From the IMG/VR virus record IMGVR_UViG_3300046616_000188: a stretch of DNA of 64,000 nucleotides. One strand, given 5' to 3'. Below are positions 6,588 to 21,365 of the stretch, one piece after another; the first letter of the stretch is position 1, and every line of letters starts with the position of its first letter. The stretch is from a virus. Below the pieces are notes generated by a model. The model saw only the letters and a program-made list of their open reading frames with translations. It was not told the DNA's origin and did not search any database. Made by a program: the position numbers and the translations under genes.

Positions 6588-7021
6588 GATATCTACAATA
6601 CGCAATTTACTTTCCTTTCAATCTTCTGTTTGTACTACTTTCGTACATCCTGTCGCCTATTCTCGCTGCGCTATCTTTCGTTTTTGGCGCTAAGCTTCCT
6701 GTACCGCTCCAGTGGTTCGGCACAATTGATGATGACTTGGATGGTGGATTTCATCAACACATTGAGGGCTACGATTCCGGTGCTAAGGGATTCTCTTTAT
6801 GGTGGCAGAGAACGTGTTGGGTCTGCCGTAACCCGGCCCACGGCTGGCAGTCCATCGTATTAGGATTCAAAGGCGAAAATAAAGGCTTCACGTTCAAACG
6901 TGACATTGTTTTGACAGATAGTTATTATCTAAAGCTTTGGCTCGGTTGGAGTAACCGCTCCTATGACGGAACATATTTCCATTACCTCTTCCAATCCGGC
7001 ATTAAGAAAAGAAAAATTTAA
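6572..7021 (+). CDS. Hypothetical membrane protein
   Basis: Hydrophobic N-terminus; WFGTIDDDLDG and WVCRNPAHG. Confidence 0.6.
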   Translation: MVKFLRYLQYAIYFPFNLLFVLLSYILSPILAALSFVFGAKLPVPLQWFGTIDDDLDGGFHQHIEGYDSGAKGFSLWWQRTCWVCRNPAHGWQSIVLGFKGENKGFTFKRDIVLTDSYYLKLWLGWSNRSYDGTYFHYLFQSGIKKRKI

Positions 7022-7516
7022 ATGACTGAAACAGTACCCAAGTACCTCTACAATCCTAAACTAAGTCTTACTCAGCAGTTCGATTATCTTCGTAACACGA
7101 TTAGGCCGGAACGATATGAGGATAAAGCCATAGCATCGGCCATGGAGAAGCTTTATGACGCAATTGCTCCTGTGGCACAACAGTACAGGGAAACGCTCGC
7201 CAGCGATGATCCTCTGGCCCTCTATCTCAATTATTTCCTTCGACCCGCCATCGATATCATGGATGACGACGTTGATGATGAAGTGGAAGAGCCTGTACTA
7301 TTTGCCACCATTCCTCTCGGCACTGAAGCGATTCAAACCAAGGTCGGCAAGATTACTGCTCTATCAACTGTTCGTATTACTCATGCTTCACCTCTTGGTG
7401 ATGTTGGGATCACTTCTAATCTATCAGCATCTCGTGGCTATGAAACTCGCGTCTTTTGGGACAGCCTGAAAGATTATCGCGTAACGGCAAAGAAGGAAGT
7501 TAAGAATGACGAATGA
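7022..7516 (+). CDS. Hypothetical protein
   Basis: 164-aa ORF. Confidence 0.6.
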   Translation: MTETVPKYLYNPKLSLTQQFDYLRNTIRPERYEDKAIASAMEKLYDAIAPVAQQYRETLASDDPLALYLNYFLRPAIDIMDDDVDDEVEEPVLFATIPLGTEAIQTKVGKITALSTVRITHASPLGDVGITSNLSASRGYETRVFWDSLKDYRVTAKKEVKNDE

Positions 7517-7700
7517 AACGCGCGCCGCCTATTCTAAGTTCCGTCTCGATTATGACGCTTATCTAAATTCTGATATCAGCTTCGATGAAAAGGAAGATGA
7601 GTATATCCCAGCCGATCATAAATTTAATCTCATCGCAACGTCTGGCAGTGGCGGAATCGTACCGGATAGTGAAGATCGAAGGTATATGGTTTTTCTATGA
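7506..7700 (+). CDS. Hypothetical protein
   Basis: 64-aa coupled ORF. Confidence 0.5.
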   Translation: MTNETRAAYSKFRLDYDAYLNSDISFDEKEDEYIPADHKFNLIATSGSGGIVPDSEDRRYMVFL

Positions 7701-8215
7701 ATAATAAAAAATTTCTATTTGTACTGGTCGGCCTGCCCTGCACCGGCAAGTCCACATTCAGGGAAAGACTTAAGCAGGATTTAGAATTTCTGACCATTTC
7801 GTCTGACGATTATGTCGAGAGTTATGCAAAAAATCTTGGTAAGACATACTCTGAAGTTTTTAAAGATGCGGTGGGGGAAGCGTCACGCCGTGTCGAAGAA
7901 GACGCTAGAATGGCTGTGATCAAGGAACTGAATGTTGTTTGGGATCAAACTAACTTAACCGCTGCGAAGCGGAAGAAAATTCTTGACAAATTCGAAAACT
8001 ATGTTAAGATATGCGTGAATTTTGAAATTGAATTTTATTCTGAATGGATGAAGCGACTCTATAAAAGGGCGGGCGAAGAAGGGAAGTATATCCCCTTCCA
8101 TGTCATCGAGAGCATGGATCGCAGTTTTGAATATCCTCAGTATTCAGAAGGTTTTGATTCCATTATAGGTGCTGGCGATTACAACATAAAGGAGCTAATT
8201 TTACACTATGCCTAA
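7697..8215 (+). CDS. P-loop kinase (AAA_33 / polynucleotide 5'-kinase-like)
   Basis: GLPCTGKST Walker A, SSDD, WDQTNL...R. Confidence 0.8.
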   Translation: MNNKKFLFVLVGLPCTGKSTFRERLKQDLEFLTISSDDYVESYAKNLGKTYSEVFKDAVGEASRRVEEDARMAVIKELNVVWDQTNLTAAKRKKILDKFENYVKICVNFEIEFYSEWMKRLYKRAGEEGKYIPFHVIESMDRSFEYPQYSEGFDSIIGAGDYNIKELILHYA

Positions 8216-8732
8216 TGTCTATTTCACCAGCGACACCCATTTTGGTCACGCCAATATCATTAGGCTCGGTGAAGGTCGCCCCTTCAAAGATATTAAGGAT
8301 CATGACACGACGCTGATCCAGCGTTGGAACGCTCGTGTCAAGCCTGATGATGTTGTGTTCCACCTCGGAGACTTCAATTATAAATCCTCCGTCGATGCTG
8401 ATTTCTATTTGAAGCAGCTGAACGGAAAGAAATTTCTCATCATTGGGAATCACGACAAGCAAGACACCATCACTGCTGATGGCTGGGAAGTTGCTCTCCC
8501 GTATCAAGAGCTTGAACTAAATGGCAAGCAAATCACTCTTTGCCATTACCCTATCGAGGAATGGAACGGTTATTTCAGAGGCTCTTGGATGCTGCATGGC
8601 CATGTCCACGGCATCACGAAGACTGTTCCGATCCGTAAGAACCGAGTCGATGTTGGCGTTGATAATTTCAATTTTACGCCAGCAACATTTGAAGAAATCC
8701 AAGAATTTAATAGGAATAGTCTGGATGCCTAA
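8208..8732 (+). CDS. Calcineurin-like metallophosphoesterase
   Basis: SDTHFGH, HLGDF, GNHD, HYP, HGHVH. Confidence 0.9.
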   Translation: MPNVYFTSDTHFGHANIIRLGEGRPFKDIKDHDTTLIQRWNARVKPDDVVFHLGDFNYKSSVDADFYLKQLNGKKFLIIGNHDKQDTITADGWEVALPYQELELNGKQITLCHYPIEEWNGYFRGSWMLHGHVHGITKTVPIRKNRVDVGVDNFNFTPATFEEIQEFNRNSLDA

Positions 8733-8976
8733 ATATGTTAAAAGTTCCCCTGACGAAATCGTTGATGCGTTCCAAGTCAGGAAGGATGGCCCCACTCCCG
8801 TACCAGATTGGTTTCCAAGTGATTATGAAATCGTTAAAGTAGGTGTTGTGTTCGAAAGTTCTCTTGGAAACTACGAAGTTGCTAGGTGGGAAGACTACGT
8901 AATTAAATATGATAGCAGCGGATATTTGGGGATAATGCCTGAGAAACTTTTTAACTACGCGTATAAACTTGCATAA
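8725..8976 (+). CDS. Hypothetical protein
   Basis: ORF from MPKYVKSSPDE, overlapping previous stop. Confidence 0.55.
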   Translation: MPKYVKSSPDEIVDAFQVRKDGPTPVPDWFPSDYEIVKVGVVFESSLGNYEVARWEDYVIKYDSSGYLGIMPEKLFNYAYKLA

Positions 8977-9013
8977 ATAAATAAATAATAACAAAATAGA
9001 ATAGGATAATAAT

Positions 9014-9517
9014 TTGACAACCATCGCATTTCGTGACGGCGTACTTGCATCTGATTCAAAGATTAGCTCTGGCTCAGATGTTTTCGTAGGGGAATTTAAA
9101 AAGGTTTTTAAATTAGTAGTTGAAGAACAGTTATCTTGGGTAGAAAGACTGGTATTTAGAAAAGAGCCACACCAAATAGAATATCTAATCGGCGCAGCTG
9201 GTACACTAAGCGATATCCAAGAATATATTGGTTGTATGTTTCTCGGAGAAGAAAGAACTAAAGGGGATTACGATTGTTCCCTCCTCGCGATTCAGCAAGA
9301 CGAAGATGGCGGCTATATCATTAGGAAGTATGACGGCGGGCTAAGAGGCCATGTCGTTAATGCCAAATATGCTTCAATCGGTTCTGGCTACGAAATAGCA
9401 CTAGGCGCGATGTATCAAGGCGCATCGGCTGAAGAAGCTGTAGCAGCTGCGATGTATCACGATAACACAAGTGGCGGCGAGCTACAAAAAGTGAGCTTCG
9501 CAGACGATGAAGAGTGA
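9014..9517 (+). CDS. Ntn-hydrolase, HslV/proteasome beta-subunit-like peptidase
   Basis: N-terminal MTTIA...ASDS, SIGSG...ALGAM, D..SGG. Confidence 0.75.
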   Translation: MTTIAFRDGVLASDSKISSGSDVFVGEFKKVFKLVVEEQLSWVERLVFRKEPHQIEYLIGAAGTLSDIQEYIGCMFLGEERTKGDYDCSLLAIQQDEDGGYIIRKYDGGLRGHVVNAKYASIGSGYEIALGAMYQGASAEEAVAAAMYHDNTSGGELQKVSFADDEE

Positions 9518-9692
9518 AACAGACGAAAAGCCTTATGGTGAATTAACTAAATATTATGACATGCTGCGACAAGGTAATATGATCGCGGCACGCCTTCATC
9601 AAAAAATTATTTCAGAGCACAGCGCCAAAGCGTTGTTTATCAAGATGATTGAAGATTTGACGAAGGAAGTTTTGAAAGATAATAAAAAATGA
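9507..9692 (+). CDS. Hypothetical protein
   Basis: 61-aa coupled ORF. Confidence 0.5.
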   Translation: MKSETDEKPYGELTKYYDMLRQGNMIAARLHQKIISEHSAKALFIKMIEDLTKEVLKDNKK

Positions 9693-10009
9693 ACATCATG
9701 ATTGACTATGATAGAACTTTCACAGCTGACGTTGCGATGTGGAGAGAAGTAATTGATAACTCCTTCCTGTTTTACGGACATAAAGTTTTTCTAGTCACAT
9801 CAAGATCAATGGAGCAGCCTATCGATTTGGTTCAAGACTTTGTCGATAGGAAGATTCCTATTATCTATTGCGCGTTCAGGGCTAAGCGCGACGTTTGCAC
9901 CGAACAAGGAATTAGAATTGATATTTGGATCGATGATGATCCTCAGTGGATCACTGACGATATTGTGTTCGATCCTGACAGAGCGGCCAAGAAGCTGGAG
10001 ATGGATTAA
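9689..10009 (+). CDS. Small HAD-superfamily protein
   Basis: IDYDRT, VTSR, WIDDDP. Confidence 0.7.
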   Translation: MNIMIDYDRTFTADVAMWREVIDNSFLFYGHKVFLVTSRSMEQPIDLVQDFVDRKIPIIYCAFRAKRDVCTEQGIRIDIWIDDDPQWITDDIVFDPDRAAKKLEMD

Positions 10010-10503
10010 TGACGTGCCAAATATTTAAAACTAATCCTGAATTCGTCACGCCGGTTGGAATATGGTTAGCAAGAAAATTAAACAAAGGCGTTGCTCGGGT
10101 CTGGCCTCTGGTACGGCAGAAGACTTACGATAAATTATCTTCACTTTATTATAATAAAATCAAAGAGCTTCACGATTCACTCGAATACGTTGATGAACTG
10201 GAAGAACAGTATTATTCACGTGCTGAAAGAATACTACCATTCCCTTCGGGACGGTACGAAGGATCAATAAAAGAGTCATTGCTCCCTGACAGACCTTATA
10301 AAAGGTTTAGTTATAGATTAGAGCCTATTTGGGGCGGACGAGAAATAGATATCGGATATACCGACGATCCAAATTATACAGACCACGTTAAAGAATTATT
10401 AGTTAAACAGATTGGCGAGCTTTGGCAAGAAAAAGGCGAAGCTGAAGCAAGAAGGTTATTATTTAATGACGACAGGAAAATTCGTAAAATTCCCTTCTAT
10501 TGA
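10009..10503 (+). CDS. Hypothetical protein
   Basis: 164-aa ORF. Confidence 0.55.
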   Translation: MTCQIFKTNPEFVTPVGIWLARKLNKGVARVWPLVRQKTYDKLSSLYYNKIKELHDSLEYVDELEEQYYSRAERILPFPSGRYEGSIKESLLPDRPYKRFSYRLEPIWGGREIDIGYTDDPNYTDHVKELLVKQIGELWQEKGEAEARRLLFNDDRKIRKIPFY

Positions 10504-11452
10504 GAAGTTTTCAGATGTCAACGCGCTTATTAAGCGCCGCTTTGAACTAAATGATCGACCCACGATCACGTATCGCGGCAAAGTAAAATTACATGGCACA
10601 AATGCGGCAATTCGGATCGATCCAGACGGCACAGTGACTTGCTTCAAACGAACCGGGGTTTGCAACGTCGAGAATGACAATGCTGGATTCGCTAATTGGG
10701 TTGCGGGGATAAAGACGAAATTCCCCGGCTTTCATTATTCTTATATTATTTATGGCGAATGGGCAGGCCCCGGCATTCAGAAGAAAGTGGCAGTATCTTC
10801 TATTGAACATAAAACGTTTTTCGTTTTCGCTATTTTAGATTTAGATAGCGGCATGGTATGGCTTGATCCAGATCAGATCAAGCATTTCCTTGGTGACCTT
10901 CCTGTTAAGGTTTTACCGTGGGCCGAAGGCTCCGAAGTAACCATCGATTTTAGACTCCAAAGCTCGATGGAGCAGGCCATGTCTCACATTGGTAATTTGG
11001 TCGAAGCGTGTGACAAGATCGATCCTTATATTAAAAATGAATTCGGCATTGAGGGAATTGGAGAAGGTTTTGTTTTCACTCCGCATTATGCCGCGATTAA
11101 CTTCGCTGAATATAGTGATTTAATCTTCAAGGCTAAAGGCGATAGCCATACCGTCTCGGTTCATGAAAAGAAGGCTTCGATTCAAATCGATCCAGCCGTT
11201 CTAGAAGGAGCAGCGGCCTTTGCCAAGGAATTTGTCACCCCGGCTCGATGCGAACAAGGCGTGACAGAAGCTTGCGGCGGTGAAGCCTCGATGAAGACGA
11301 TGGGCGCATTCATGAAGTGGATCGGCCAAGACGTGCAGAAAGAATCAGTAAACGAATTGGAAGCTTCAGGCCTTGATTGGAAGAATGTTTCTAAAGCCGT
11401 AAATCAACAAGCGAGAGATTGGTATATCCTCGCAACCGAGAGGAATTTATAA
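10466..11452 (+). CDS. RNA ligase 2-like (Rnl2 family)
   Basis: KVKLHGTN motif I, YGEWAG, FFVF, EGFVF, FKAKG. Confidence 0.8.
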   Translation: MTTGKFVKFPSIEKFSDVNALIKRRFELNDRPTITYRGKVKLHGTNAAIRIDPDGTVTCFKRTGVCNVENDNAGFANWVAGIKTKFPGFHYSYIIYGEWAGPGIQKKVAVSSIEHKTFFVFAILDLDSGMVWLDPDQIKHFLGDLPVKVLPWAEGSEVTIDFRLQSSMEQAMSHIGNLVEACDKIDPYIKNEFGIEGIGEGFVFTPHYAAINFAEYSDLIFKAKGDSHTVSVHEKKASIQIDPAVLEGAAAFAKEFVTPARCEQGVTEACGGEASMKTMGAFMKWIGQDVQKESVNELEASGLDWKNVSKAVNQQARDWYILATERNL

Positions 11453-11928
11453 TGCCTAATAATATTGTATTTGATATCGAATCTACTCCTATTGCTGTTT
11501 ACCCCTACGGGGATTACTATAACATCGGCTCTGGCGTGTCATGGGCCGAAGCGCTTGGCGACCAAAAGGTTGAACCAGCCGTCAGAGAAATTCCGGTAGA
11601 AGTAGGTGATAGGTTTTATGATTCACTGATCGGAGAAGTTGAAGTTATTTATATCTCCGATTTTGGTCAGATCGTCATTAGGTACAGTGACGGTTCGATA
11701 AGCACTTTCGAAACCATTGGCGAATTCAACGGCTCGGGCTTAGAAAAGGTTTTTGAAACCGATGGCTGGATCAATGTTATTCGGGACACTGAATTTAACG
11801 AAGTCTTCTTCGATGATGCAGTTTATGTCACTGAAGAAGCTGCCATTCTCGCCTTTGAAGACACCAAGCTCTCATCATGGGAACTGCTAGATACGACTCA
11901 CATCGCGTGGGACAATAAGTATGACTGA
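11452..11928 (+). CDS. Hypothetical protein
   Basis: GAGG RBS, TAATG-coupled. Confidence 0.6.
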   Translation: MPNNIVFDIESTPIAVYPYGDYYNIGSGVSWAEALGDQKVEPAVREIPVEVGDRFYDSLIGEVEVIYISDFGQIVIRYSDGSISTFETIGEFNGSGLEKVFETDGWINVIRDTEFNEVFFDDAVYVTEEAAILAFEDTKLSSWELLDTTHIAWDNKYD

Positions 11929-12118
11929 TCAGCCAGATATCTATATCAGTAAAGGTCGTACCGGAAGTGGTGATGAAGTCGAAGTCTTCCTTTGGAAATA
12001 CAGACCAACCAACGAAGAAGTTGAGGCCCTGTATCAACAAGTTTATGCCTATGAGTATGAAGAAGATGGCGAAGGCGTTTATTTCACAATCGAGCATGCA
12101 ATGTGGGCACATAAATGA
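11921..12118 (+). CDS. Hypothetical protein
   Basis: 65-aa coupled ORF. Confidence 0.5.
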   Translation: MTDQPDIYISKGRTGSGDEVEVFLWKYRPTNEEVEALYQQVYAYEYEEDGEGVYFTIEHAMWAHK

Positions 12119-12375
12119 GCAAAGCTAAAATCGGATACCATCTCACTGAAATCAAGAAGGGAGTGCTTGGCGAATCGTCCAAGATTATGGAAGAGCTTCT
12201 TGAACTATGTGATGCAGAAGAGCAAGGTTGCAAGGTAATGGCTCTTGTCGAGCTTTCTGATCTTGTCGGTGCGGTTCGGGCCTATCTTCATCATAACCAT
12301 CCCGGCATCACTTTAGATGATCTTGACCTTATGGCCAGCATCACGAAAAGAGCTTTCGACAATGGAAGACGATGA
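12115..12375 (+). CDS. MazG-like all-alpha NTP pyrophosphohydrolase (single domain)
   Basis: KIMEELLEL...LVELSDLVG (EExxE...ExxD). Confidence 0.6.
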   Translation: MSKAKIGYHLTEIKKGVLGESSKIMEELLELCDAEEQGCKVMALVELSDLVGAVRAYLHHNHPGITLDDLDLMASITKRAFDNGRR

Positions 12376-12550
12376 AGCGTACCAGCGTACTAGGTATCTT
12401 CTATTGGAACAATTGAGACAGCTTGACCAAGAGTTTAAAAAATTGGCTGAGCCTATTCTCCGAAAGCTGGTAGAACTTGAGGCTTGCAGGCCTTGCCCTC
12501 TTTTAAGCGAGCTACAATGGAAAACGATAACATCATCCGATACGATTTAA
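12362..12550 (+). CDS. Hypothetical protein
   Basis: Helical ORF MEDDEAYQR... Confidence 0.45.
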   Translation: MEDDEAYQRTRYLLLEQLRQLDQEFKKLAEPILRKLVELEACRPCPLLSELQWKTITSSDTI

Positions 12551-13062
12551 TCGCTCAAGCCCTTGACTTTTATAAAGGTTTAGGCTATAGAGAGATTAAC
12601 GTTCCGTGGCATGTCAGAACTGAAGTCTCTGACATCACTTGCCCAAGCCCTGACAGAGCTTATCCGTTCGAGAATGGCGTGCTGGTAGGATCGGCGGAAC
12701 AGTCAATGATCCAAATGGCATTAGATGGCGAATTGGTCCAAGGCCTAAGCTATGTCACTGTCACACCCTGTTTCAGAAATGAGCCTGAACTAGACCGCTA
12801 CCATCAGAAATATTTTATGAAGGTAGAACTATTTCATTTCGGAATTAATTATCAGGCCTACAGACTTATCCGACACGACGCGTTTCAATTTTTAAAATCT
12901 CTTACGGCTAAAACGATTGATGTTGTTGAATATGACGGACGAAACAGCGATATGGAAATTGATGGTGTCGAAATAGGTTCGTATAACTTTCGCTCCATGA
13001 ACGGCGTTACGTGGACCTGTGGCACCGGCCTAGCCCTGCCGCGATTTACTAAGGTTATGTAA
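12517..13062 (+). CDS. Minimal class II aminoacyl-tRNA synthetase-like catalytic domain
   Basis: Motif 2-like PCFRNE...H..YFMKVE, EIGS, motif 3-like GTGLALPR; no anticodon-binding domain. Confidence 0.7.
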   Translation: MENDNIIRYDLIAQALDFYKGLGYREINVPWHVRTEVSDITCPSPDRAYPFENGVLVGSAEQSMIQMALDGELVQGLSYVTVTPCFRNEPELDRYHQKYFMKVELFHFGINYQAYRLIRHDAFQFLKSLTAKTIDVVEYDGRNSDMEIDGVEIGSYNFRSMNGVTWTCGTGLALPRFTKVM

Positions 13063-13208
13063 TGGCAGAGATTCACGATCTAAATGTCTATAGAAAAATT
13101 AAAAAACTCAAAAAGAACAATGACGTATTGGTAAGAGCCTTGGCCGTGTTCGATCACGACAAAGCTAGATATGAAGCAATTATAAAAGAATATGACCATA
13201 AAAATTGA
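13062..13208 (+). CDS. Small hypothetical protein (48 aa)
   Basis: Read by hand: MAEIHDLNVYRKIKK...DHKN*, TAATG-coupled. Confidence 0.45.
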   Translation: MAEIHDLNVYRKIKKLKKNNDVLVRALAVFDHDKARYEAIIKEYDHKN

Positions 13209-14924
13209 TAGGGTTGACGGGCTATATGTCGCCCGTTGTACCTATGAAGAACGATTAATCCTTAAAAGACAAGGGTTTAAGTATAACGGTAAACGATGGA
13301 TCACTGAAAGTGACGATATCGCTCGTAAGTTATATGACAATTGTACCGGTTTGGCTAAAGAACGTCTCGATAACTTAGACGAGATTAAGAGGCAGCTGGT
13401 AGAAGCATCGTTTGCCGATGATTATGACGGACACCTCCTTGCCCCTGAAGGCTTGAATTATCTCCCGTTCCAGCGCGCCGGTATTGCGTTCGCGTTGGAG
13501 CGTGACGATACGCTTATTGCAGATAGTCCCGGCTTGGGAAAACTGTTCAGGCATTAGGTGTAGTTAACAACGTCCCTAATGTCAAGAATATCTTAATCGT
13601 TGTTCCCGCCTCCCTTAAAATCAATTGGAAAAAGGAGGCGACGAAGTGGATAAGACCTGAGCTTGGCCTAACAATTGGCATAGCTCACACAAAAGCTAAA
13701 ACTATTATAGATTCTGAAGGCACGAAAAAATCTGTCACAGAATACATCTGGCCCGATGAAGATATTGTCATTATCAATTACGACATGCTAGCTCCGTTTC
13801 GCGAAAAGGTCATGGCGCGTAAGTGGGATATTTTAGTCTGTGACGAGGCTCACGTCCTCAAGAACAAAGACGCTAATAAGACAAAGCAAGTCTTAGGTTA
13901 CGAAGGTAAACGCCGCAGCGATAAGATGTCAGCGATTGAAGCTGTTAGAAGGATATTCCTAACCGGTACTCCGATTCTCAATAAGCCGTTGGACATGTTC
14001 TGCACCATCTCGGCCTTCGGCTATGAAGATGTTTTTGGCAACTACGTTAAATTTATTAAAAAATTCTGCGCCGCGTTCGAAACCCCTTGGGGGCATTGGG
14101 ACACGACAGGAACGGATAATCTTGAGGAATTTCAAGAGCTTCTTCGTTCCACCTTCATGATCAGAAGACATAAGGACGACGTTCTGAAGGAGCTTCCGCC
14201 TAAGAGGCGGCAAATCATTACACTGCCTCAAGACGGCCTGTCTCGAATTGTCAAAAAGGAAAAGCAGATTTTCCAAGACAACCTGAAAAATCTCATGATC
14301 CTGAACGGTGAAAAAACCGAGGCAGATTATGAGGAAATGACTGACACGCAGCTTCGTCACCTCATTGATAATATTCACGAAAGAACCAGAAATTTCTCAG
14401 ACGTGGAAGACTTCGACAATTACGAGGCGACTCATTTCGAAGCCATAGCGCATGCCAGAGAAGAAATTGGCTTGGCCAAACTTCCGATGATGATTGAGTA
14501 TATCAGGTCGTTGGTCGATACGGGTGAAAAAGTTGTGGTGCTCGTGGTCCATAGAACTGTGGCTCATAGGATCGCGGATGCGTTCGAAGGTTCAGTTAAA
14601 TTTATTGGAGGCATGAGTGACAAGGAAAAGAATCTTTCTGTTGAGACTTTCCAGACTGATCCAGATTGTAAGGTTTTCGTTGGTAACATCAATGCTGCTG
14701 GCGTTGGTATTACTCTTACTGAGTCGTGGAATCTTGTTATGGGCGAACTATGTTTCGTCCCTGCCTTATTAGAACAAGGCGAAGATAGGATTCACAGAAT
14801 TGGACAAGTGGCTCATGCCTTGATTCATTACCTCATTGTGTCTGGATCACTGGAAGAGCGCTTGATGGAAATCGTGTTAGAGAAACTAGAAATGATTCAT
14901 GCAGCGTTGGATAGAAAGAAATGA
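13192..14924 (+). CDS. SNF2-family helicase, interrupted by a -1 frameshift at ~13542 (~577 aa when joined)
   Basis: Frame 0 to IADSPGLGK; -1 frame open from 13542: TVQALG...VPASLKINW...CDEAH...LTGTPILN...GVGITL...QGEDRIHRIGQ. Confidence 0.9.
13536..13583 (+). other. Candidate -1 frameshift signal (G_GGA_AAA, 7-nt spacer, hairpin)
   Basis: Heptamer 13536-13542 in phase; GGCATTAGG (13550-58) pairs with CCTAATGTC (13575-83). Confidence 0.5.
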
Positions 14925-15020
14925 AGAAAAAACTAAAATGGGTAAACGCCGCGAGGCGAGAATTAGGCTATCCGGTGTGGACCATGGCGCAACTACTTGA
15001 GCATCAAAAGAGAAAAATAA

Positions 15021-15326
15021 ATGAGAACAAGAAGTGAATGTAATTGTACGTGTCACACAATGCCTGCCAAGATGCACGTCATGGCGTGTTGTGTACCAGA
15101 TAAGGAAGAAAAAATGTACGTATTTAAGACAGAAGGCCTTGAAATTTTAGAAACAGCCAAAGTGGTTCAAACCTCAGAATTCTTTTACGACTTGTTTGAC
15201 GGCGGCTATATCGATCCAAGCCTTATTCTTGTTGAAGAAGACGCGGCGCGTGTTAACGAGGCAATCCGTCTCATCCTAGAATTCCGCGAAACGTTGGAAG
15301 AAAATGACATGGTGGAATATTCGTAA
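15021..15326 (+). CDS. Hypothetical protein, Cys/His-rich N-terminus
   Basis: CNCTCH...H...CC. Confidence 0.55.
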   Translation: MRTRSECNCTCHTMPAKMHVMACCVPDKEEKMYVFKTEGLEILETAKVVQTSEFFYDLFDGGYIDPSLILVEEDAARVNEAIRLILEFRETLEENDMVEYS

Positions 15327-15342
15327 CAAAATCAAAAAGCCG

Positions 15343-15372
15343 CTTGACATCTAAATTCAATATCGCTATATC
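15343..15372 (+). promoter_or_regulatory. sigma70 promoter, rhizobial consensus
   Basis: CTTGAC-N17-CTATAT exact match. Confidence 0.75.
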
Positions 15373-15417
15373 GATGTTGCAAATGAAATTCCTGACTAAC
15401 AAATTAAGGAGATTTGA

Positions 15418-16332
15418 ATGATTAAGAAGATGATTATGGGTGCCGCACTTGTTCTGGCCGCAACGATGGGCTCGGTCAGCCTCGCTCAGGCCGAAACCCC
15501 GACGCTGAAGTTTTGCTCCGGTGCAAAGGGTGGGGTTTACGACTACACCGCCGAAGTGCTGAAGCAGCAACTTGCTGGCACGGTAGACGTTGTCAACGTT
15601 AACACCGCTGGTTCTATGGATAACCTTCAGAAGATCGCGAGTGGCGAATGTGACGCAGCTGCGGCGCAGAGTGATAGTCTTTATCTCTATGGTAAGGAAA
15701 ATCCGAATGCGCTCGATCTGATCGTTCTGGAAAATAACCTCTATACCGAATTCTTCCACCTGATTTGTAATCGCAAGTCTGGCGTGACGCAGTTTTCCGA
15801 CCTGACCAAGAGCACTCTGGTTTACTCCGGTGGGCGAGGTTCCGGTTCCGATGTTTCACTTCGCGGCCTAATCGCGGCTGATGTTGAACACGGCGGCGGG
15901 GATTACAAGGAAGTTCCGATCAGTAATGAAGGCGGCGCTGCTGCTTTGATTAAGCTTAACGGCGGTAAGGGTGCGTGCCTCGCTTATACCGGCGCTCCGG
16001 GTGGTAAGTTTGTTTCCGGTGATGCTTCGAAGTTCGCTGAATCTCTGGTCATCGTGCCGGTAGAAGATAAGGACTTCAATGATGCGGAATACACCGACTC
16101 GAACGGTGTGAAGCAGTCGGTTTGGTCCAACGTAACGATGCCTTACTCTTCTTACGGCAAGCTGATGCCTAGTGGGACATTCGGTCGCAAAGACGTTGCC
16201 ACGATGGGCGTTGCGGCTGAAATCATTGTCTCTTCGGCTTGGTCCACCGCAAATCCTGACGCCTTTGGTGAAGTAGGCCTCTCTATCCCTGACGTGAAGA
16301 ATTTGGTCCGCTCGACCAAGAAGCTTCAGTAA
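15418..16332 (+). CDS. TAXI-family TRAP transporter solute-binding protein
   Basis: Signal peptide (AQA), GGVY, TAGSMDNL, AAAQSD, LYTEFFHLI, GSGS; AAGGAG RBS. Confidence 0.8.
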   Translation: MIKKMIMGAALVLAATMGSVSLAQAETPTLKFCSGAKGGVYDYTAEVLKQQLAGTVDVVNVNTAGSMDNLQKIASGECDAAAAQSDSLYLYGKENPNALDLIVLENNLYTEFFHLICNRKSGVTQFSDLTKSTLVYSGGRGSGSDVSLRGLIAADVEHGGGDYKEVPISNEGGAAALIKLNGGKGACLAYTGAPGGKFVSGDASKFAESLVIVPVEDKDFNDAEYTDSNGVKQSVWSNVTMPYSSYGKLMPSGTFGRKDVATMGVAAEIIVSSAWSTANPDAFGEVGLSIPDVKNLVRSTKKLQ

Positions 16333-16353
16333 GCTGCCGATAGGCAGACCAAC

Positions 16354-16390
16354 ATCCTCCCCAACTAATCCTTGGGGAGGATTATTTTTT
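16354..16390 (+). terminator. Rho-independent terminator
   Basis: ATCCTCCCCAA...TTGGGGAGGAT + TATTTTTT; preceded by small hairpin CTGCC-GATA-GGCAG. Confidence 0.8.
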
Positions 16391-16419
16391 TCTCAAATAT
16401 CTGAGAAGGAGTTAAATTT

Positions 16420-17436
16420 ATGAAACCGTTGATTAAATTGGAATTTGGTTCAGCACTTTATGGTACGAAGACTCCTGAAAGTGATACGGATTATAAGGGC
16501 GTCCACGTCCCTGACGCAAATAGCCTTGTGACGCAGGACGCGGATCGTGTCATCTCTAACTCGACTGGTTCGGATAAGATCAAGAATACAAAAGATGACG
16601 TGGATGATGAGAGTTATTCTATTCTGAAGTTCTTTGATATGTTGAAACGGGGAGATATGGTGGCGCAGGAGCTATTACACGTCCCGGTAGAGAAAGCCCT
16701 TGTCATGTCGCCGGAATGGAAAGACCTTATTCTTCCCAATAAGCACAAACTTGTGGCCCGCGATATCAAGGGCTTTGTCGGCTATATCCGCACTCAGTCA
16801 AATCGTTATGGGATTCGCGGCTCACGTGTCGCCACGGCTCGTAACGCGATGGACTTGTTTTCGTTTTGGGTAGCTAGTTATGGCGCTAATACCAAGATCA
16901 AAGATGTGCCCATGTTCCACGAGGAGCTTGAACGCTTCATCGTAGTGAATGATCACGCCGCGTTCGTGACGTTGCCTGTGGCTAAAGGCAGCACTGAAAC
17001 AGTGGAATATTTCGAGGCGATAAATCGTAAAGTTGGCTACACCATTGCTCTGAAAGAAGCTCACGCGATCTACAAGCGTAGTTTCGATGAGTACGGCTCT
17101 AGAGCGCTAATGGCTGAGCAGAATGAGGGTGTGGACTGGAAAGCACTGTATCACGCCATACGTGTCTCGGAGCAGGCCATGGAACTGCTTCAAACGGGTG
17201 TAATCACTTTCCCACGTCACAACGCCGCTGAGCTTCTGACGATTAAGCGTGGCGAACATCCTTATAAAGATATTGCCACTATGCTCGAAAATAATCTTGA
17301 CAAATTAGAAAATTTAATGTTAGTATCTGATTTGCCAGACGCGGTTGATGAAGACTTTATGGATGACGTGGTTCACGATCTTCACTTAAATCAGATTATG
17401 GACGAGTATCAATTAACTTGGGACCTGAATGTTTAA
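16420..17436 (+). CDS. Pol-beta superfamily nucleotidyltransferase (RlaP-like)
   Basis: FGSALYGTKTPESDTDYKG and DWKALYHAIR. Confidence 0.8.
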   Translation: MKPLIKLEFGSALYGTKTPESDTDYKGVHVPDANSLVTQDADRVISNSTGSDKIKNTKDDVDDESYSILKFFDMLKRGDMVAQELLHVPVEKALVMSPEWKDLILPNKHKLVARDIKGFVGYIRTQSNRYGIRGSRVATARNAMDLFSFWVASYGANTKIKDVPMFHEELERFIVVNDHAAFVTLPVAKGSTETVEYFEAINRKVGYTIALKEAHAIYKRSFDEYGSRALMAEQNEGVDWKALYHAIRVSEQAMELLQTGVITFPRHNAAELLTIKRGEHPYKDIATMLENNLDKLENLMLVSDLPDAVDEDFMDDVVHDLHLNQIMDEYQLTWDLNV

Positions 17437-17747
17437 TGGATAACTTAGACTCTCCGCTCGACGTAGATCGATATCATTTCGAAAAACATCTGGTAGGCCT
17501 ACAATGGCAACCTCAACCTGATATTTGGTGGGACGATGACTATTTCGAAATTGGCTACGAGTGGATCAGCAAAGATAGAACACGTCACGCCGTTGTCACT
17601 ATAGATGGGACATATGGCCGATACCGCTATTGTTATCTCATTGGCGATAAGTTCGTGGCAGGGAAACAGTTTGATCCACTCTGTTCCGAATTTCCAGATG
17701 ACTTAAGGGAGTATCTTAATGACAGTGTACGTGCTGCGAGAACTTGA
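17436..17747 (+). CDS. Hypothetical protein
   Basis: TAATG-coupled ORF. Confidence 0.55.
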   Translation: MDNLDSPLDVDRYHFEKHLVGLQWQPQPDIWWDDDYFEIGYEWISKDRTRHAVVTIDGTYGRYRYCYLIGDKFVAGKQFDPLCSEFPDDLREYLNDSVRAART

Positions 17748-17874
17748 AAATATGATTTGGTTTAATGTGGGCGTTGTTGATGAATTAGCGCTGGCAGAAA
17801 AATGGATGAATGAATCGTTTGCTCATGGCCGTCGAAATTTCATAGCTTACGAGTTAAATAGAGGTTTCAAATGA
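17719..17874 (+). CDS. Small hypothetical protein (51 aa)
   Basis: Read by hand: MTVYVLRELENM...RGFK*, GGGAG RBS. Confidence 0.45.
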   Translation: MTVYVLRELENMIWFNVGVVDELALAEKWMNESFAHGRRNFIAYELNRGFK

Positions 17875-18056
17875 TTCGTTATAAACCCGGCGACGTGCTT
17901 CAATTTAAAAATTCTAAAGAGATTAAAAGAATCATAATTAAAGCCACTAGCGATGGCTACATATTTACGAAAGAGGTTTCAGGCCTAGCCGAAGACAGCT
18001 CTGAAACTAACGATCCTTATTTCGAAGACGGCTGGAGGATTTATGATAACGATTAG
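17871..18056 (+). CDS. Hypothetical protein
   Basis: ATGA-coupled ORF. Confidence 0.5.
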   Translation: MIRYKPGDVLQFKNSKEIKRIIIKATSDGYIFTKEVSGLAEDSSETNDPYFEDGWRIYDND

Positions 18057-18231
18057 AGTTGAAGAGCACGAAGATTATTGGGAATGCGGCGATGGCTGTT
18101 GCACCAATTGGGACGTTGTGAGTGTATTTCACCACGAAGGCGAGACATACGAGTACAGAAGTTGCGACGGGGAAGTTAATATTAGAAACTTCCTTGAAGA
18201 GCATTTTCAAATTAAATTTGAGTACGAATGA
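18043..18231 (+). CDS. Hypothetical protein
   Basis: WECGDGCC motif, GGAGG RBS. Confidence 0.55.
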   Translation: MITIRVEEHEDYWECGDGCCTNWDVVSVFHHEGETYEYRSCDGEVNIRNFLEEHFQIKFEYE

Positions 18232-18464
18232 TGTGGAATAAGTTTGAAACTGAAACCCCCGTACCGGGGAGTAAAATTGTAATTGTTTCGGAACGTGGCG
18301 CTTCGTGCTACGCCGCTTATGTTAATAAAAACGGCGATATACTATACGCCGAAGACGGCGAATCACTTAGTGGCGGTTGGTGGGACAGAACAACGCTCTG
18401 GACCTATTTGCCCAATGATCATCCTATCCAATTTATGGAGCAAACCGTCGATGACTGGTATTAA
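18228..18464 (+). CDS. Hypothetical protein
   Basis: 78-aa coupled ORF. Confidence 0.55.
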   Translation: MMWNKFETETPVPGSKIVIVSERGASCYAAYVNKNGDILYAEDGESLSGGWWDRTTLWTYLPNDHPIQFMEQTVDDWY

Positions 18465-18465
18465 A

Positions 18466-18627
18466 ATGTCAATTGAAGATTACGAAGAACTTTTGGAACG
18501 CCTTAAGATGAAAGACGCTCAGGATTCCGTCAAGATCGAACTAAGCCATTCCGATGTTAAGGTTTTTATTTCTCTCGTTAAATACGAAATTGCCGACTTA
18601 AAGTTCTGGAAAGAAAGAGAAGATTAA
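18466..18627 (+). CDS. Small hypothetical protein
   Basis: From MSIEDYEEL, 53 aa. Confidence 0.45.
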   Translation: MSIEDYEELLERLKMKDAQDSVKIELSHSDVKVFISLVKYEIADLKFWKERED

Positions 18628-18634
18628 ATTTTAA

Positions 18635-19213
18635 ATGGCCAAACTTCATTTTTTCTACAGCGTTATGAATGCTGGTAAATCCACTGCCCTGCTCCAAGCC
18701 GCACATAATTATGAAACTAAGGGTTGGAATGTATTATGTTTCACTTCAGCCCTTGACATTCGCGACAAAGTAGGATACATCAGTAGCAGGGTGGGAATTA
18801 AGAGAGAAGCTGTAGCTATGACAAGCGACTCTTATTTTAGCAATCATGTCTCACCTTTCGAACTTGGACGAAAGAGAACTGTTTGGTTCGTAGATGAAGT
18901 CCAATTTCTTGATTCTGAACAAATCGATGAACTTGCTCAAATCGTTGATCACTTTAAAATCCCCGTTCTCTGCTACGGGCTAAAGAATAATTCAAACGGC
19001 GAGCTATTTGGTCCTGCCATTATCAGGCTTCTCGCCCTCGCTGATCAAATTAAAGAATTAAAAACTGTGTGCCATTGTGGCGCAAAGGCAACTCAAATTT
19101 TAAGACGACGTAACGGCGTAGCTACAATCACTTCAGATATTGTCGAAGTGGGAGATAGTGAATATGAATCTGTTTGTCGTACCCATTGGAAAGAAGCATT
19201 TTATGAACACTGA
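18635..19213 (+). CDS. tdk: Thymidine kinase
   Basis: SVMNAGKST, DEVQFL, YGL, CHCG and YESVCRTH zinc motifs. Confidence 0.9.
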   Translation: MAKLHFFYSVMNAGKSTALLQAAHNYETKGWNVLCFTSALDIRDKVGYISSRVGIKREAVAMTSDSYFSNHVSPFELGRKRTVWFVDEVQFLDSEQIDELAQIVDHFKIPVLCYGLKNNSNGELFGPAIIRLLALADQIKELKTVCHCGAKATQILRRRNGVATITSDIVEVGDSEYESVCRTHWKEAFYEH

Positions 19214-19529
19214 AACTGATAAGAAAGAACTCGCCGTAGCATCCATCGTTGCAATTATTCTACTACCATTTCTTTTCTGCCTCAATGCTTATACCCTAGC
19301 TTATCTCTGGCTCTGGTTCGTTGTCCCTCTCGGCGTACCAGCGATTGGCATGGCGCACGCCCTAGGCATTCTCTGCCTCAAAGGGTTTCTAACCTCACAT
19401 CTCGCCACGTTTAAGCATGACGAAGAAGATGTGACTAAATCAAAGCTAATGTGGACCAAGACAGCTAGAAATATCGGTGTCCCTTTTGCTTGCCTAGCTT
19501 TTGGGTATATTTACCACAGCTTTATGTGA
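19203..19529 (+). CDS. Hypothetical membrane protein
   Basis: Several hydrophobic segments. Confidence 0.6.
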   Translation: MNTETDKKELAVASIVAIILLPFLFCLNAYTLAYLWLWFVVPLGVPAIGMAHALGILCLKGFLTSHLATFKHDEEDVTKSKLMWTKTARNIGVPFACLAFGYIYHSFM

Positions 19530-19545
19530 TTGGAATTTTTTTAAA

Positions 19546-20064
19546 ATGGGTTATATTACAACATTTACGGGGATTGATTTTAATCCCCTAAAATTTACTG
19601 AAGATGATTTTGATATTGAAGATATTGCCCACGCCCTCTCGATGAATTGCAGATGGGCCGGTCATTGTAGCGCTTTCTACAGCGTGGCACAGCACAGCGT
19701 TTATGTGAGCCGCTTCATGCAGAAGTTTCAGATGCACGGCCTGATTCATGACGGCAGCGAAGCTTATGGCTCAGACATGCCAACACCGTTCAAAAATATT
19801 CTTCCCGATTTTAGGAAATTGGAAGATAATATCCAGAACAAGATTTATAAAAAGTTCTTGGGTCGGATTCCTACCGATGAAGAACATAGTTATTTAAAGA
19901 TTTATGATCGTCTACTCCTTGACTTTGAAGGCACAACGTTTATTAAGCATTGGGCCGCAAGGATCGACACTTCTATCATCAAGCAAGTGGATGAGAAGTT
20001 CCACCCTTGGACACCGAGTGAAGCTAAGGAAGAATTTCTCAAAGAATTCAGAAAATTAGTGTAA
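19546..20064 (+). CDS. HD-domain 5'-deoxynucleotidase-like protein (YfbR/YfdR type)
   Basis: DIAHALS..CRWAGH, YSVAQHS, LIHDGSEAY. Confidence 0.85.
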   Translation: MGYITTFTGIDFNPLKFTEDDFDIEDIAHALSMNCRWAGHCSAFYSVAQHSVYVSRFMQKFQMHGLIHDGSEAYGSDMPTPFKNILPDFRKLEDNIQNKIYKKFLGRIPTDEEHSYLKIYDRLLLDFEGTTFIKHWAARIDTSIIKQVDEKFHPWTPSEAKEEFLKEFRKLV

Positions 20065-20087
20065 TAAAAATACTGGAAATTAGTGTA

Positions 20088-21365
20088 ATGGATATTACTG
20101 CAATTACTACTGTAGCGGAGTCGCAGTTCCATACTTGGCTACAGGCTCAGTTGCATAACGACTTCCTCGTGGCAGGTATCGGCACTGTTGCCCTTTCAGG
20201 GATTATGTATGCCCTCAAAAGCATTCCCGGTAAGATTTGGAACGCCCTTTATCACAGATCGACTATCACGATCAACGTCTTCAGTGATAACGAGAATTTC
20301 GTTGATGTGGTGACAGAATTCAATCGCCACACCATCAACTTCCTTTCCCGTCAAAACATCCTAGACGGCGATAAAATGAGTGTGGGCCTCGGCACTTCTT
20401 GGACCCGATTCAGAGGGCATCTGGTAAAGATTAACCGCCAGAAGGAAAAGTCTGATAGCAAGGATTTCAAGCAAGACTTGACCGTGACGCATTTCTTTTC
20501 CTCAAAGAAAAAGGTATTAAAGCTTTATGAAGATTTCTTTGAAGAGAAGAAGGCGAAGAAGAAAGACAGCATCAAAATCTACTCCTTGACCAAGGATTGG
20601 GTGCAGCATCTGAAAGATATGCCGAAGCGGAGCCGCGAAGGCGTCTTCATCTCTCCAGACGTTCTTGAGCACATTGAAAAAAGAATTAAGTTCTTTCAAA
20701 ATAATAGAGCTTGGTATGAGGATCGCGGCATCCCTTATAAGTATGCAATTCTTCTGCACGGTGTTCCCGGAACTGGTAAAACAACATTAGCGAAATATAT
20801 TGCATCTATTACGAACCGGCACGTAGTAATGGTAAGCCCGACACGACTCCCCGGTCTGGCGTTAGCGCTAAACGGCATTTATGATCCAGACGACAGGCAG
20901 GAACGAGCTTCTTATCTAGGGATTATGGAAGATATTGACACAGATAACATCACAGCTAAACGGAGTGAAGCACCAGATGATGCCGATGACGATGGTGAAG
21001 TGATCGTTGGAAACGATGGCGAAAAGTTCAGCCTGATTACCCTTGCCGATCTCCTGAACGCTATCGATGGGATAAATTCGCCTGAGAATTTCATTCTGGT
21101 CGCAACCACTAATCACTTAGGAAAGCTCGATCCTGCGTTGTTCAGGAAGGGTCGCTTCGATGATGTGATTGAAATTAAACCTCTCGAAACACCTGAGATT
21201 ATCCGCATGGTTAAATTCTTCTTCGAAAGACAAGATGCCAAAGGATTTGCCAAGGAGTATGAGCCGATCCCCGGCGCTGTGTTGCAAGATATTATTCTTC
21301 AATATTATGACGACGGTATTGAAAAGACAATAGAGGTTTTGAATGAAAAATTTAGCAGAGTTTGA
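20088..21365 (+). CDS. BCS1-like membrane-anchored AAA+ ATPase
   Basis: N-terminal TM, GIPYK..LLHGVPGTGKT, EDID, LLNAIDG, TTNH..LDPALFRKGRFD. Confidence 0.8.
   Translation: MDITAITTVAESQFHTWLQAQLHNDFLVAGIGTVALSGIMYALKSIPGKIWNALYHRSTITINVFSDNENFVDVVTEFNRHTINFLSRQNILDGDKMSVGLGTSWTRFRGHLVKINRQKEKSDSKDFKQDLTVTHFFSSKKKVLKLYEDFFEEKKAKKKDSIKIYSLTKDWVQHLKDMPKRSREGVFISPDVLEHIEKRIKFFQNNRAWYEDRGIPYKYAILLHGVPGTGKTTLAKYIASITNRHVVMVSPTRLPGLALALNGIYDPDDRQERASYLGIMEDIDTDNITAKRSEAPDDADDDGEVIVGNDGEKFSLITLADLLNAIDGINSPENFILVATTNHLGKLDPALFRKGRFDDVIEIKPLETPEIIRMVKFFFERQDAKGFAKEYEPIPGAVLQDIILQYYDDGIEKTIEVLNEKFSRV

What the first reader, a model, noticed from the sequence alone, without database searches (positions are those of the whole stretch)
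13192..14924. SNF2 helicase split inside Walker A by a candidate programmed -1 frameshift
Seen: frame 0 reads ...IADSPGL GGA AAA CTG TTC AGG CAT TAG (stop 13557). The -1 frame from 13542 restores GLGK-TVQALG and runs without stops through all SNF2 motifs. The junction is an in-phase G_GGA_AAA heptamer, a 7-nt spacer, then a 9-bp stem (13550-58/13575-83, one G.U) containing the stop. Known: this geometry is classic -1 PRF, and GGGAAAA is used in phage tail chaperone genes. Inference: output is split between a 121-aa N-terminal protein and a ~577-aa motor, an unusual use of recoding in a phage replication gene. Caveat: losing one A from GGA AAA ACT creates the same heptamer, so only the hairpin and the otherwise intact long genes are independent support.
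Basis: partly seen in the sequence, partly recalled or inferred. Interest (0 to 1): 0.8.

Follow-up and report, generated by a model that had tools for sequence, protein, structure and literature searches.

The report
Phage helicase gene read by frameshift
A soil phage's SNF2 helicase gene really is broken by one missing base inside its ATP-binding loop, and ribosomes most likely slip back one base there to make the whole enzyme, because a distant relative keeps the same break at the same slippery site under strong selection.

Summary
The 0 frame reads TTG GGA AAA CTG ... TAG (stop 13555-57). The -1 frame from 13542 restores GLGK-TVQALG and stays open to 14924, giving a 577-aa SNF2 ATPase.

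The break is not an assembly error. The exact 121-aa and 379-aa products occur on 5 contigs from several samples, and it is the only frame-broken gene among about 38 syntenic genes.

All close relatives (45-89% identity) have one continuous 570-581-aa ORF. One reads GGA AAA ACG, so the window is a one-base-deletion allele.

A 41%-identical lineage (L024/L074) carries the same G_GGA_AAA break at the same codons. Its two copies differ at 13.5% of bases with no indels, and dN/dS in the -1 frame is 0.025. There the frameshift is old and decoded.

Other family members carry inteins, a DUF559 endonuclease gene, or 5-7-base stop-containing gaps at this spot. Earlier notes of this scan describe such hop gaps in other phage helicases.

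Best reading for the window is a functional -1 ribosomal frameshift (about 0.7), shown only by analogy. A recent pseudogene is about 0.2. Hairpin support is moderate.

The parts
13192..13557 (+). 0-frame ORF of 121 aa. It holds the N-terminal domain, the LPFQRAG motif, strand beta-1 and GLGK, then the out-of-frame tail LFRH and stop TAG 13555-57.
   Evidence: The exact protein P0122 is on 5 contigs. Residues 1-117 match relatives at 88%.
13536..13542 (+). In-phase slippery heptamer G_GGA_AAA, the proposed -1 shift site. Gly and Lys tRNAs would re-pair to GGG AAA.
   Evidence: The same heptamer sits at the same codons in L024/L074. Intact relatives read GGC AAG A, GGT AAG A, GGC AAA A or GGA AAA A.
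13542..14924 (+). -1-frame continuation of 460 codons plus stop. It runs from the T of GKT through all SNF2 motifs (DEAH, LTGTP, QGEDRIHRIGQ). Joined to 13192-13542 it gives 577 aa.
   Evidence: It is 89% identical to the 577-aa P0002. No start codon lies in this frame before ATG 13785, and no SD precedes that ATG.
13544..13590 (+). Two-part hairpin: inner 9-bp stem 13550-58/13575-83 (one G.U, contains the 0-frame stop) and outer 5-bp helix 13544-48/13586-90. It is the candidate 3' stimulator.
   Evidence: -14.6 kcal/mol, z -2.45; for chance estimates. L024/L074 have a hairpin of similar architecture at the same place.
13566..13604 (+). Possible pseudoknot pairing: loop AACAACG 13566-72 with CGTTGTT 13598-13604. 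It is tentative, because the arms encode the conserved N-N and V-V residues.
   Evidence: It adds nothing under the generic energy null.

Best explanation
The gene at 13192-14924 encodes one 577-aa SNF2-family ATPase, made from two overlapping frames.

Proposed mechanism:
- The genome of this soil phage truly lacks one base in the Walker-A codons. Relatives read YTN GGN AAR ACN; the window reads TTG GGA AAA CTG.
- Ribosomes that decode GGA and AAA in the 0 frame slip back one base, with the Gly and Lys tRNAs re-pairing on GGG AAA.
- They continue with ACT GTT CAG and so rebuild the exact wild-type GLGKTVQALG sequence.
- The hairpin starting 1-7 nt downstream probably raises the slip rate.
- Ribosomes that do not slip stop four codons later and release a 121-aa fragment of no shown function.

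Shown: the break, its reality in several assemblies, the heptamer, the open and intact -1 frame, the hairpin, and selection on the same arrangement in a second lineage.

Inferred: that slippage actually occurs in this phage, at what rate, and why the arrangement persists.

The likeliest reason for its origin is that this codon position is a homing site for inteins and free-standing endonucleases. At such a site, frame-breaking indels that ribosomes can read through may survive or even protect the gene.
For: 1. The allele is real. The exact 121-aa and 379-aa products are on 5 contigs (JGI 3300046660, Logan SRR26076614, SRR26076590, and a 188-kb contig). L020 is 100% identical to the window over 6366 bp. 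No full-length version of this genotype exists among 15 billion proteins.

2. The break is isolated. Of about 38 syntenic genes compared with L015, only this one is split between frames, and the two matches overlap at residues 115-117.

3. The gene shows no decay.
- All catalytic motifs are present.
- There are no further stops or indels in 461 codons.
- Only 10 lineage-unique residues fall at positions invariant in four relatives, against 33-34 for L018 and L019.

4. No start codon in the -1 frame would let a P-loop-containing fragment be made independently.

5. A second lineage has the same arrangement. L024 and L074 carry CTG GGA AAA C at the same codons.
- They differ at 240 of 1784 nt with 0 indels.
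- dN/dS is 0.118 upstream in the 0 frame and 0.025 downstream in the -1 frame (175 synonymous against 29 nonsynonymous changes). The wrong frame gives 2.2.
- Local identity around the site is 87-92%, so the break was not transferred recently.
- Their intact cluster-mate L073 lacks the heptamer.

6. Both lineages have a hairpin at the same place. MFE is -14.3 in the window and -17.6 and -15.7 in L024/L074. These rank 4th, 5th and 7th of 36 distinct family sequences. Given its own peptide, the window's stem arises in 0.7% of synonymous recodings.

7. The motif is usable in bacteria. G_GG.A_AA.A occurs in IS elements thought to frameshift and needs a stimulator for appreciable levels (PMC4066793). 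GGGAAAA is annotated as the shift site of a phage tail chaperone (PMC11749239).
Against: For the window's own lineage only one clonal genotype is known. Neither conservation of the break nor selection after it can therefore be shown directly.

All relatives at 45-89% identity are unbroken. L019 has the five-A form from which a simple homopolymer deletion would give this sequence, heptamer included.

The inner stem is not kept in intact relatives: 60% of cells are paired against 57% in shuffles.

Intact homologues L065, L066 and L050 have stronger hairpins at the same place, so a hairpin here is not specific to broken alleles.

G_GGA_AAA was rated inefficient in E. coli in older work cited in PMC4066793.

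Confidence: 0.7

Rival explanations
1. This is a recent inactivating one-base deletion, giving a young pseudogene. Polymerase slippage in the A5 run (or the G4 or CC run) of the Walker-A codons knocked out a dispensable helicase in one clonal phage population. The heptamer is an automatic by-product of the deletion, and the hairpin is chance.
For: L019 has GGA AAA ACG. The gene holds 4-10 homopolymer runs of 5 or more bases, so such deletions are expected. Only one genotype carries the break, and all copies are identical. All near relatives are intact. The stem is only in the top 1-6% by chance measures.
Against: The same break at the same codons is kept under strong purifying selection in L024/L074.

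At least three further lineages have other frame-breaking changes at the same L|G junction. This is very unlikely for random damage in a 1.7-kb gene.

There is no other lesion, and no excess of unique residue changes, in the window's gene.

The population is abundant enough to assemble 188 kb and recurs in several samples.
Confidence: 0.2
2. This is a sequencing or assembly error. The true genome has five As and a continuous ORF.
For: Homopolymer length errors are the commonest indel artefact. One relative has A5. Reads could not be checked.
Against: The exact broken products are on 5 contigs from JGI and Logan assemblies of several runs. L020 is identical to the window. No intact version of this genotype is present among 15 billion proteins. 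None of about 37 neighbouring genes is frame-broken.
Confidence: 0.03
3. This is a true split gene without recoding. A 121-aa N fragment and a separately initiated C fragment assemble non-covalently into an active enzyme, or each acts alone.
For: Many family members have N-terminal fragments as separate ORFs, for example those ending ..GFDISKLKK next to an endonuclease gene. In L031 the stop TAG overlaps a GTG that could restart translation.
Against: In the window the -1 frame has no ATG/GTG/TTG until 13785. That is 81 codons past the P-loop, and no SD precedes it. Such a fragment would lack motifs I and Ia, and the N fragment carries GK-L instead of GKT. In L024/L074 the two changes between the heptamer and the first possible start are synonymous in the -1 frame but alter the 0-frame tail.
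Confidence: 0.05

Closest known systems
Canonical bacterial and phage -1 programmed ribosomal frameshifting (E. coli dnaX A_AAA_AAG plus hairpin; lambda-like tail assembly chaperones G/GT with G_GGA_AAG or GGGAAAA; IS3/IS911 transposases)
   Same: It has an in-phase X_XXY_YYZ heptamer with Lys AAA in the A site. A stem-loop lies a few nt downstream and the 0-frame stop lies just after the site. The longer trans-frame product is the enzyme.
   Different: The site lies inside a catalytic motif (the Walker A P-loop), not at a domain boundary. It is lineage-specific: nearest relatives are unbroken. It arose at least twice in one family. The short product has no evident role, and slipping restores the ancestral protein rather than adding a new C-terminus.
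Compensatory ('savior' or 'problem' indel) frameshifting, such as herpes simplex thymidine-kinase G-run mutants and mitochondrial single-base inserts (Atkins et al. 2016, PMC5009743)
   Same: A genomic indel is read through by low-level ribosomal slippage at the indel site itself. The non-shifted product is useless.
   Different: This case is in a bacteriophage helicase. A canonical tandem-slippage heptamer and a hairpin are present. In the sister case L024/L074 the arrangement is maintained over long divergence.
Phage T4 gene 39 / mobA / gene 60 cassette: a homing endonuclease plus a 50-nt translational bypass (PMC5009743; Manning and Atkins, bioRxiv 10.1101/2022.08.31.505936)
   Same: A frame-breaking change sits at a homing site in a phage DNA-metabolism gene, and the gene stays functional through recoding. 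In the same SNF2 family, L027 has a DUF559 endonuclease gene inserted about 30 nt upstream of a 7-nt gap, CTT TGA G CTT, with matched Leu codons.
   Different: The window has no endonuclease gene next to it and no gap. It has a one-base deletion read by overlapping -1 re-pairing, not a hop. No nascent-peptide signal was examined.
Short stop-containing hop gaps in phage helicase Walker A motifs noted earlier in this scan (e1-1545893, e1-5778892, e1-5839995 and others; unpublished AI notes)
   Same: The codon position is the same, the class of genes is the same, and they are linked to selfish nucleases. I saw three such gaps myself in this family (L027, L031, L032).
   Different: Those are insertions of 5-11 bases that begin with a stop codon. 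The window and L024/L074 instead have a one-base loss that creates a classic -1 slippery heptamer.

Membership tests
Programmed -1 ribosomal frameshift site | In-phase X_XXY_YYZ slippery heptamer in the overlap of two ORFs | tested here: met
   G_GGA_AAA at 13536-42 is in phase with ATG 13192. The overlap is 13527-13557.
Programmed -1 ribosomal frameshift site | The -1 frame continues the homologous protein without stops | tested here: met
   460 codons, 89% identical to P0002. The tblastn pieces abut at residues 115-117.
Programmed -1 ribosomal frameshift site | Stimulatory RNA structure 5-9 nt downstream, better than chance | tested here: inconclusive
   The stem is present. Chance estimates range from 0.7% to 5.6% by method. 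Intact homologues can have stronger hairpins there.
Programmed -1 ribosomal frameshift site | Shift site and both ORFs conserved among diverged carriers, with purifying selection on the downstream frame | tested here: inconclusive
   In the window lineage only identical copies are known. In the independent lineage L024/L074 the feature is met: 13.5% divergence, 0 indels, dN/dS 0.025.
Programmed -1 ribosomal frameshift site | Trans-frame protein or measured frameshifting | not testable with these tools
   This needs a reporter assay or mass spectrometry.
SNF2-family ATPase (Pfam PF00176 plus PF00271) | SNF2-related N lobe and Helicase_C lobe with motifs I-VI | tested here: met
   P0001 scores SNF2-rel_dom 3.1e-30 and Helicase_C 7.3e-7. 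The full-length relative P0002 scores 1.9e-36. The best PDB matches are INO80, ISWI and Sulfolobus Rad54-like. Motif I is complete only after the -1 shift.
T4 gene 60 / mobA-type endonuclease-plus-bypass cassette | Homing endonuclease gene next to the recoding site | tested here: not met
   The neighbours of the window gene are small ORFs with no Pfam family on record (L020 table). It is met in the family member L027, which has DUF559 at 5.3e-8.
T4 gene 60 / mobA-type endonuclease-plus-bypass cassette | Non-coding gap with a stop after the take-off codon and a matched landing codon | tested here: not met
   The window has a one-base loss, not a gap. Gaps of this form are in L027, L031 and L032.
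Sequencing artefact | The break is confined to one assembly or library | tested here: not met
   5 contigs from two assembly sources and several runs.

The most novel reading that the evidence does not exclude
The Walker-A codons of phage helicase genes are a battleground with selfish DNA. Inteins and free-standing endonucleases home to this highly conserved sequence. Alleles whose target is destroyed by a frame-breaking indel survive because ribosomes can still read them.

The reading would work by a -1 slip when one base is lost (the window, L024/L074), or by a short hop over a stop when 5-7 bases are gained (L027, L031, L032).

Recoding would then be a recurrent, convergent immunity device against homing. 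That would generalise the single T4 gene 60 example and add -1 frameshifting to it.
Probability: 0.3. Interest if true: 0.85.

Novelty: new variant of a known kind. Interest (0 to 1): 0.7.

Why it matters
Apart from tail chaperones, dnaX and insertion sequences, few natural -1 frameshift sites are known in bacteria and phages. I found none reported inside a catalytic P-loop, and no open-access paper held the terms for frameshifting in a phage SNF2 helicase.

Two things would follow if the reading is right:
- Many 'broken' helicase genes in phage metagenomes are mis-annotated as pseudogenes or as two genes.
- One gene family offers side-by-side natural examples of -1 slippage, short stop-hops, inteins and endonuclease insertions at the same codons. 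That makes the proposed link between homing elements and recoding, so far resting on T4 gene 60, testable at the bench.

Tried and rejected
- **Megablast against GenBank phages:** no match. The best cultured relatives are only about 38% identical.
- **Exact junction pattern (A4 or A5) of this genotype in IMG/VR:** none.
- **Degenerate broken-junction patterns in IMG/VR:** these gave two chance hits, L028 and L029, and one intact gene, L075, read in another phase.
- **P0091 relatives in IMG/VR:** none.
- **Covariation of the 9-bp stem among seven intact relatives:** no support. This is expected if they do not frameshift, so it is not decisive.
- **Pseudoknot pairing 13566-72/13598-13604:** it looked striking under a strict null (3 of 21267 positions; 0 of 20000 recodings). 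It added nothing under a generic energy score (1.6%), and its arms encode the conserved N-N and V-V residues. I keep it as tentative.
- **P0074 (L026/L027):** not a -1 case. It is an endonuclease insertion plus a 7-nt gap.
- **Caulobacter phage BL57:** its helicase is annotated as two overlapping CDSs, but the break lies about 130 residues after Walker A, so it is unrelated.
- **Transcriptional slippage:** rejected, because four As are far too short.
- **Upstream SD-like stimulator:** none is visible in 13515-13535.
- **tRNA genes:** none in the window.

Full report
**What is in the sequence**

The 0 frame that starts at ATG 13192 reads ...GCA GAT AGT CCC GGC TTG GGA AAA CTG TTC AGG CAT TAG and stops at 13555-57 after 121 codons. 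Reading from 13542 in the -1 frame gives TVQALGVVNN... with no stop until 14922-24. Joined at the heptamer the product is 117 + 460 = 577 residues.

Pfam finds SNF2-rel_dom and Helicase_C in the downstream part. In the full-length relative P0002 the SNF2 domain starts at residue 94, so the break lies about 25 residues inside the ATPase core, in the P-loop.

The -1 frame is open only from 13527 and has no ATG, GTG or TTG before ATG 13785, which has no Shine-Dalgarno sequence. No fragment carrying the P-loop can therefore be made by separate initiation.

Both frames encode L-G-K across 13533-13542 (TTG GGA AAA and CTT GGG AAA). The lost base could therefore have come from a CC, GGGG or AAAAA run, and any -1 slip in this stretch restores the wild-type protein.

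**Is the break real?**

- The exact 121-aa and 379-aa products are on record on 5 contigs from JGI and Logan assemblies: sample 3300046660, runs SRR26076614 and SRR26076590, and a 188,398-bp contig.
- L020 is identical to the window over 6366 bp.
- No full-length version of this genotype exists in the 15-billion-protein collection.
- Of about 38 genes syntenic with relative L015 across window 4342-24663, only this one is split between frames.
- Raw reads could not be examined.

I put a sequencing error at about 3%.

**Close relatives**

Twelve protein clusters at 45-89% identity are continuous ORFs of 570-581 aa. They sit in the same gene order: Rnl1, kinase, phosphoesterase, RNA ligase, SNF2, TAXI-type receptor, RlaP, TK, AAA, Thg1.

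At the junction they read GGC AAG ACG, GGT AAG ACG, GGT AAG ACA, GGC AAA ACG and, in L019, GGA AAA ACG.

The window's protein shows no decay. All motifs are present, and it has 10 lineage-unique residues at positions invariant in four relatives, against 33-34 for L018 and L019. Synonymous sites between the window and its nearest relatives are near saturation (77% nt against 89% aa identity), so the age of the break cannot be read from them.

**The hairpin**

The MFE fold contains the 9-bp stem 13550-58/13575-83 and an outer helix 13544-48/13586-90 (-14.6 kcal/mol, z -2.45).

Chance estimates depend on the yardstick:

| Yardstick | Frequency |
|---|---|
| 48-nt windows of this genome folding as well | 5.6% |
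| Window positions with an ungapped stem this good at spacing 5-9 | 0.76% |
| Synonymous recodings of the same peptide | 0.7% |
| Generic stem-plus-pseudoknot energy score | 1.5% |

The stem is not kept in seven intact relatives.

Across 36 distinct family sequences the three broken -1 alleles rank 4th, 5th and 7th for stability downstream of the P-loop codons. Intact L066, L050 and L065 rank above them, with z about -5.5. The hairpin is thus supportive but not specific, and those strong hairpins in intact genes remain unexplained.

**The decisive comparison**

Among the hits, P0014 (41% identical, 458 aa) starts just after the P-loop. Its contig L024 reads CCT GGC CTG GGA AAA CAA TTC AGG CAG TGG.

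- The upstream 149-aa ORF ends ...LIADSPGLGK plus an out-of-frame tail.
- The -1 frame gives GK-TIQAVG....
- This is the same heptamer, in phase, at the same codons as in the window.

The 90% cluster of P0014 holds a second broken variant (P0137 with N fragment P0139, contig L074) and an intact 584-aa form (P0136, L073).

L024 and L074 compare as follows:
- They differ at 240 of 1784 positions with no indel, and both keep the break.
- By the Nei-Gojobori method, dN/dS is 0.118 for the upstream part in the 0 frame.
- It is 0.025 for the downstream part in the -1 frame (175 synonymous and 29 nonsynonymous differences, dS 1.1).
- The same DNA read in the wrong frame gives 2.2.
- The two substitutions just after the heptamer are silent in the -1 frame but change the 0-frame tail. 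That tail differs at 5 of 17 residues.
- Local identity around the site is 87-92% per 100 nt, so the break was not moved in recently.
- Both have a 12-13-bp two-part hairpin starting 1-2 nt after the heptamer (-17.6 and -15.7 kcal/mol).
- Intact L073 reads CTC GGA AAG ACG and lacks it.

In that lineage the break is old, the downstream frame is translated, and a protein with a P-loop needs a -1 shift. That amounts to a programmed frameshift in every respect except direct measurement.

**The same codons are a hot spot**

- **L032** (NCBI and ENA assemblies) reads GGC CTT TAA CTT GGC AAA ACG. This is an in-frame six-base insert with a stop between matched Leu codons.
- **L031** reads GGG TTG TAG TG GGA AAA ACC, which is five extra bases.
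- **L027** reads GGC CTT TGA G CTT GGA AAA ACG, which is seven extra bases. A DUF559 endonuclease gene lies about 30 nt upstream and the N-terminal part is a separate ORF.
- **Eight IMG/VR contigs** (L039 and others) carry an in-frame insert of about 370 residues between K and T. It starts with Ser, ends with HN followed by Thr, and has LAGLIDADG motifs, so it is an intein.
- **Protein-level hints of further cases:** P0147 ends ...DDMGL on 6 contigs, P0162 changes frame after GL, and many N fragments end ..GFDISKLKK.

Inteins in P-loops, including those of SNF2-type proteins, are known (PMC4760082). The T4 gene 60 gap has been proposed to protect against the neighbouring homing endonuclease (PMC5009743; Manning and Atkins preprint). 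As of that review, natural in-frame stop-hops were unknown.

Earlier notes of this scan (e1-1545893, e1-5778892, e1-5839995 and others) describe stop-containing hop gaps in the Walker A motif of other phage helicases. The gap class has therefore been found before on other DNA. I saw it independently here. The one-base-loss form with a -1 heptamer is the new element.

**Weighing**

For the window itself the evidence is indirect:
- a real, isolated break;
- an undecayed gene with no independent start;
- a canonical heptamer;
- a better-than-chance hairpin;
- an independent lineage in which the identical arrangement is under strong selection.

Against it stand three facts. Only one clonal genotype is known, all near relatives are intact, and a plain A5-to-A4 deletion would produce exactly this sequence.

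G_GGA_AAA is usable but not strong in E. coli and depends on stimulators (PMC4066793).

| Explanation | Weight |
|---|---|
| Functional -1 frameshifting | 0.70 |
| Young pseudogene | 0.20 |
| Split protein without recoding | 0.05 |
| Sequencing or assembly error | 0.03 |

Why the arrangement exists is open. Protection of a homing site is attractive (0.3), and a set ratio of fragment to enzyme is not supported.

Noticed in passing
L032:1950-2010 (NCBI GCA_004196315.1 contig SDBT01052386.1; same protein in ENA ERZ23486238): The SNF2 Walker A reads GGC CTT TAA CTT GGC AAA ACG. This is an in-frame stop flanked by matched Leu codons, the form of a 'stop-hop'. The 2016 review says no natural case of this was known.
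   Followed up: partly
L027:1503-2530 and L026 (JGI 3300072491): The helicase gene is split by a DUF559 endonuclease ORF (1913-2497). A short ORF from ATG 2446 ends ...NVLIADEMGL, followed by TGA, then a 7-nt gap with a second CTT before GGA AAA ACG. The layout resembles T4 gene 39/mobA/gene 60.
   Followed up: partly
L031:1985-2010 (ENA ERZ27245394): Five extra bases, TTG TAG TG GGA AAA ACC, sit at the same junction. The stop TAG overlaps a GTG, so either a hop or a restart is conceivable.
   Followed up: no
L039:307-2811; also L041, L043, L055-L057, L064, L072 (IMG/VR, mostly sample 3300045988): A LAGLIDADG intein of about 370 residues is inserted exactly between K and T of GLGK|T. Intein-free alleles (L042, L044-L048) occur in the same metagenome.
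   Followed up: partly
L066, L065, L050 (about 10-55 nt after the GKT codons): Intact family members have very stable hairpins (-20 to -24 kcal/mol, z about -5.5) just downstream of the P-loop codons, for example ATAGGCATCG...CGATGCCTAT. No frameshift is needed there, and their role is unexplained.
   Followed up: no
L030 (Caulobacter phage BL57, PQ287320.1 107468-109392): The helicase is annotated as two overlapping CDSs (BL57_150c and BL57_149c) that overlap by 49 nt about 130 residues after Walker A. This may be a frameshift or an error in a cultured phage.
   Followed up: no
proteins P0147 and P0162: P0147 is an N fragment ending ...DDMGL, found on 6 contigs from four sources. P0162 changes frame right after GL: its tail AKLSKQSDLQ is an off-frame reading of GKTIQAIG-type codons. 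Both are probably further recoding alleles, but no DNA was fetched.
   Followed up: no
window 4342-22116: The window holds a dense RNA-repair-type gene set that is syntenic in all relatives: Rnl1-like ligase 4342-5517, AAA_33 kinase, metallophosphoesterase, second RNA ligase 10412-11452, RlaP-like 16420-17436 and Thg1-like 21343-22116. A TAXI-family solute-binding protein with a signal peptide lies at 15418-16332, which is unusual for a phage.
   Followed up: no
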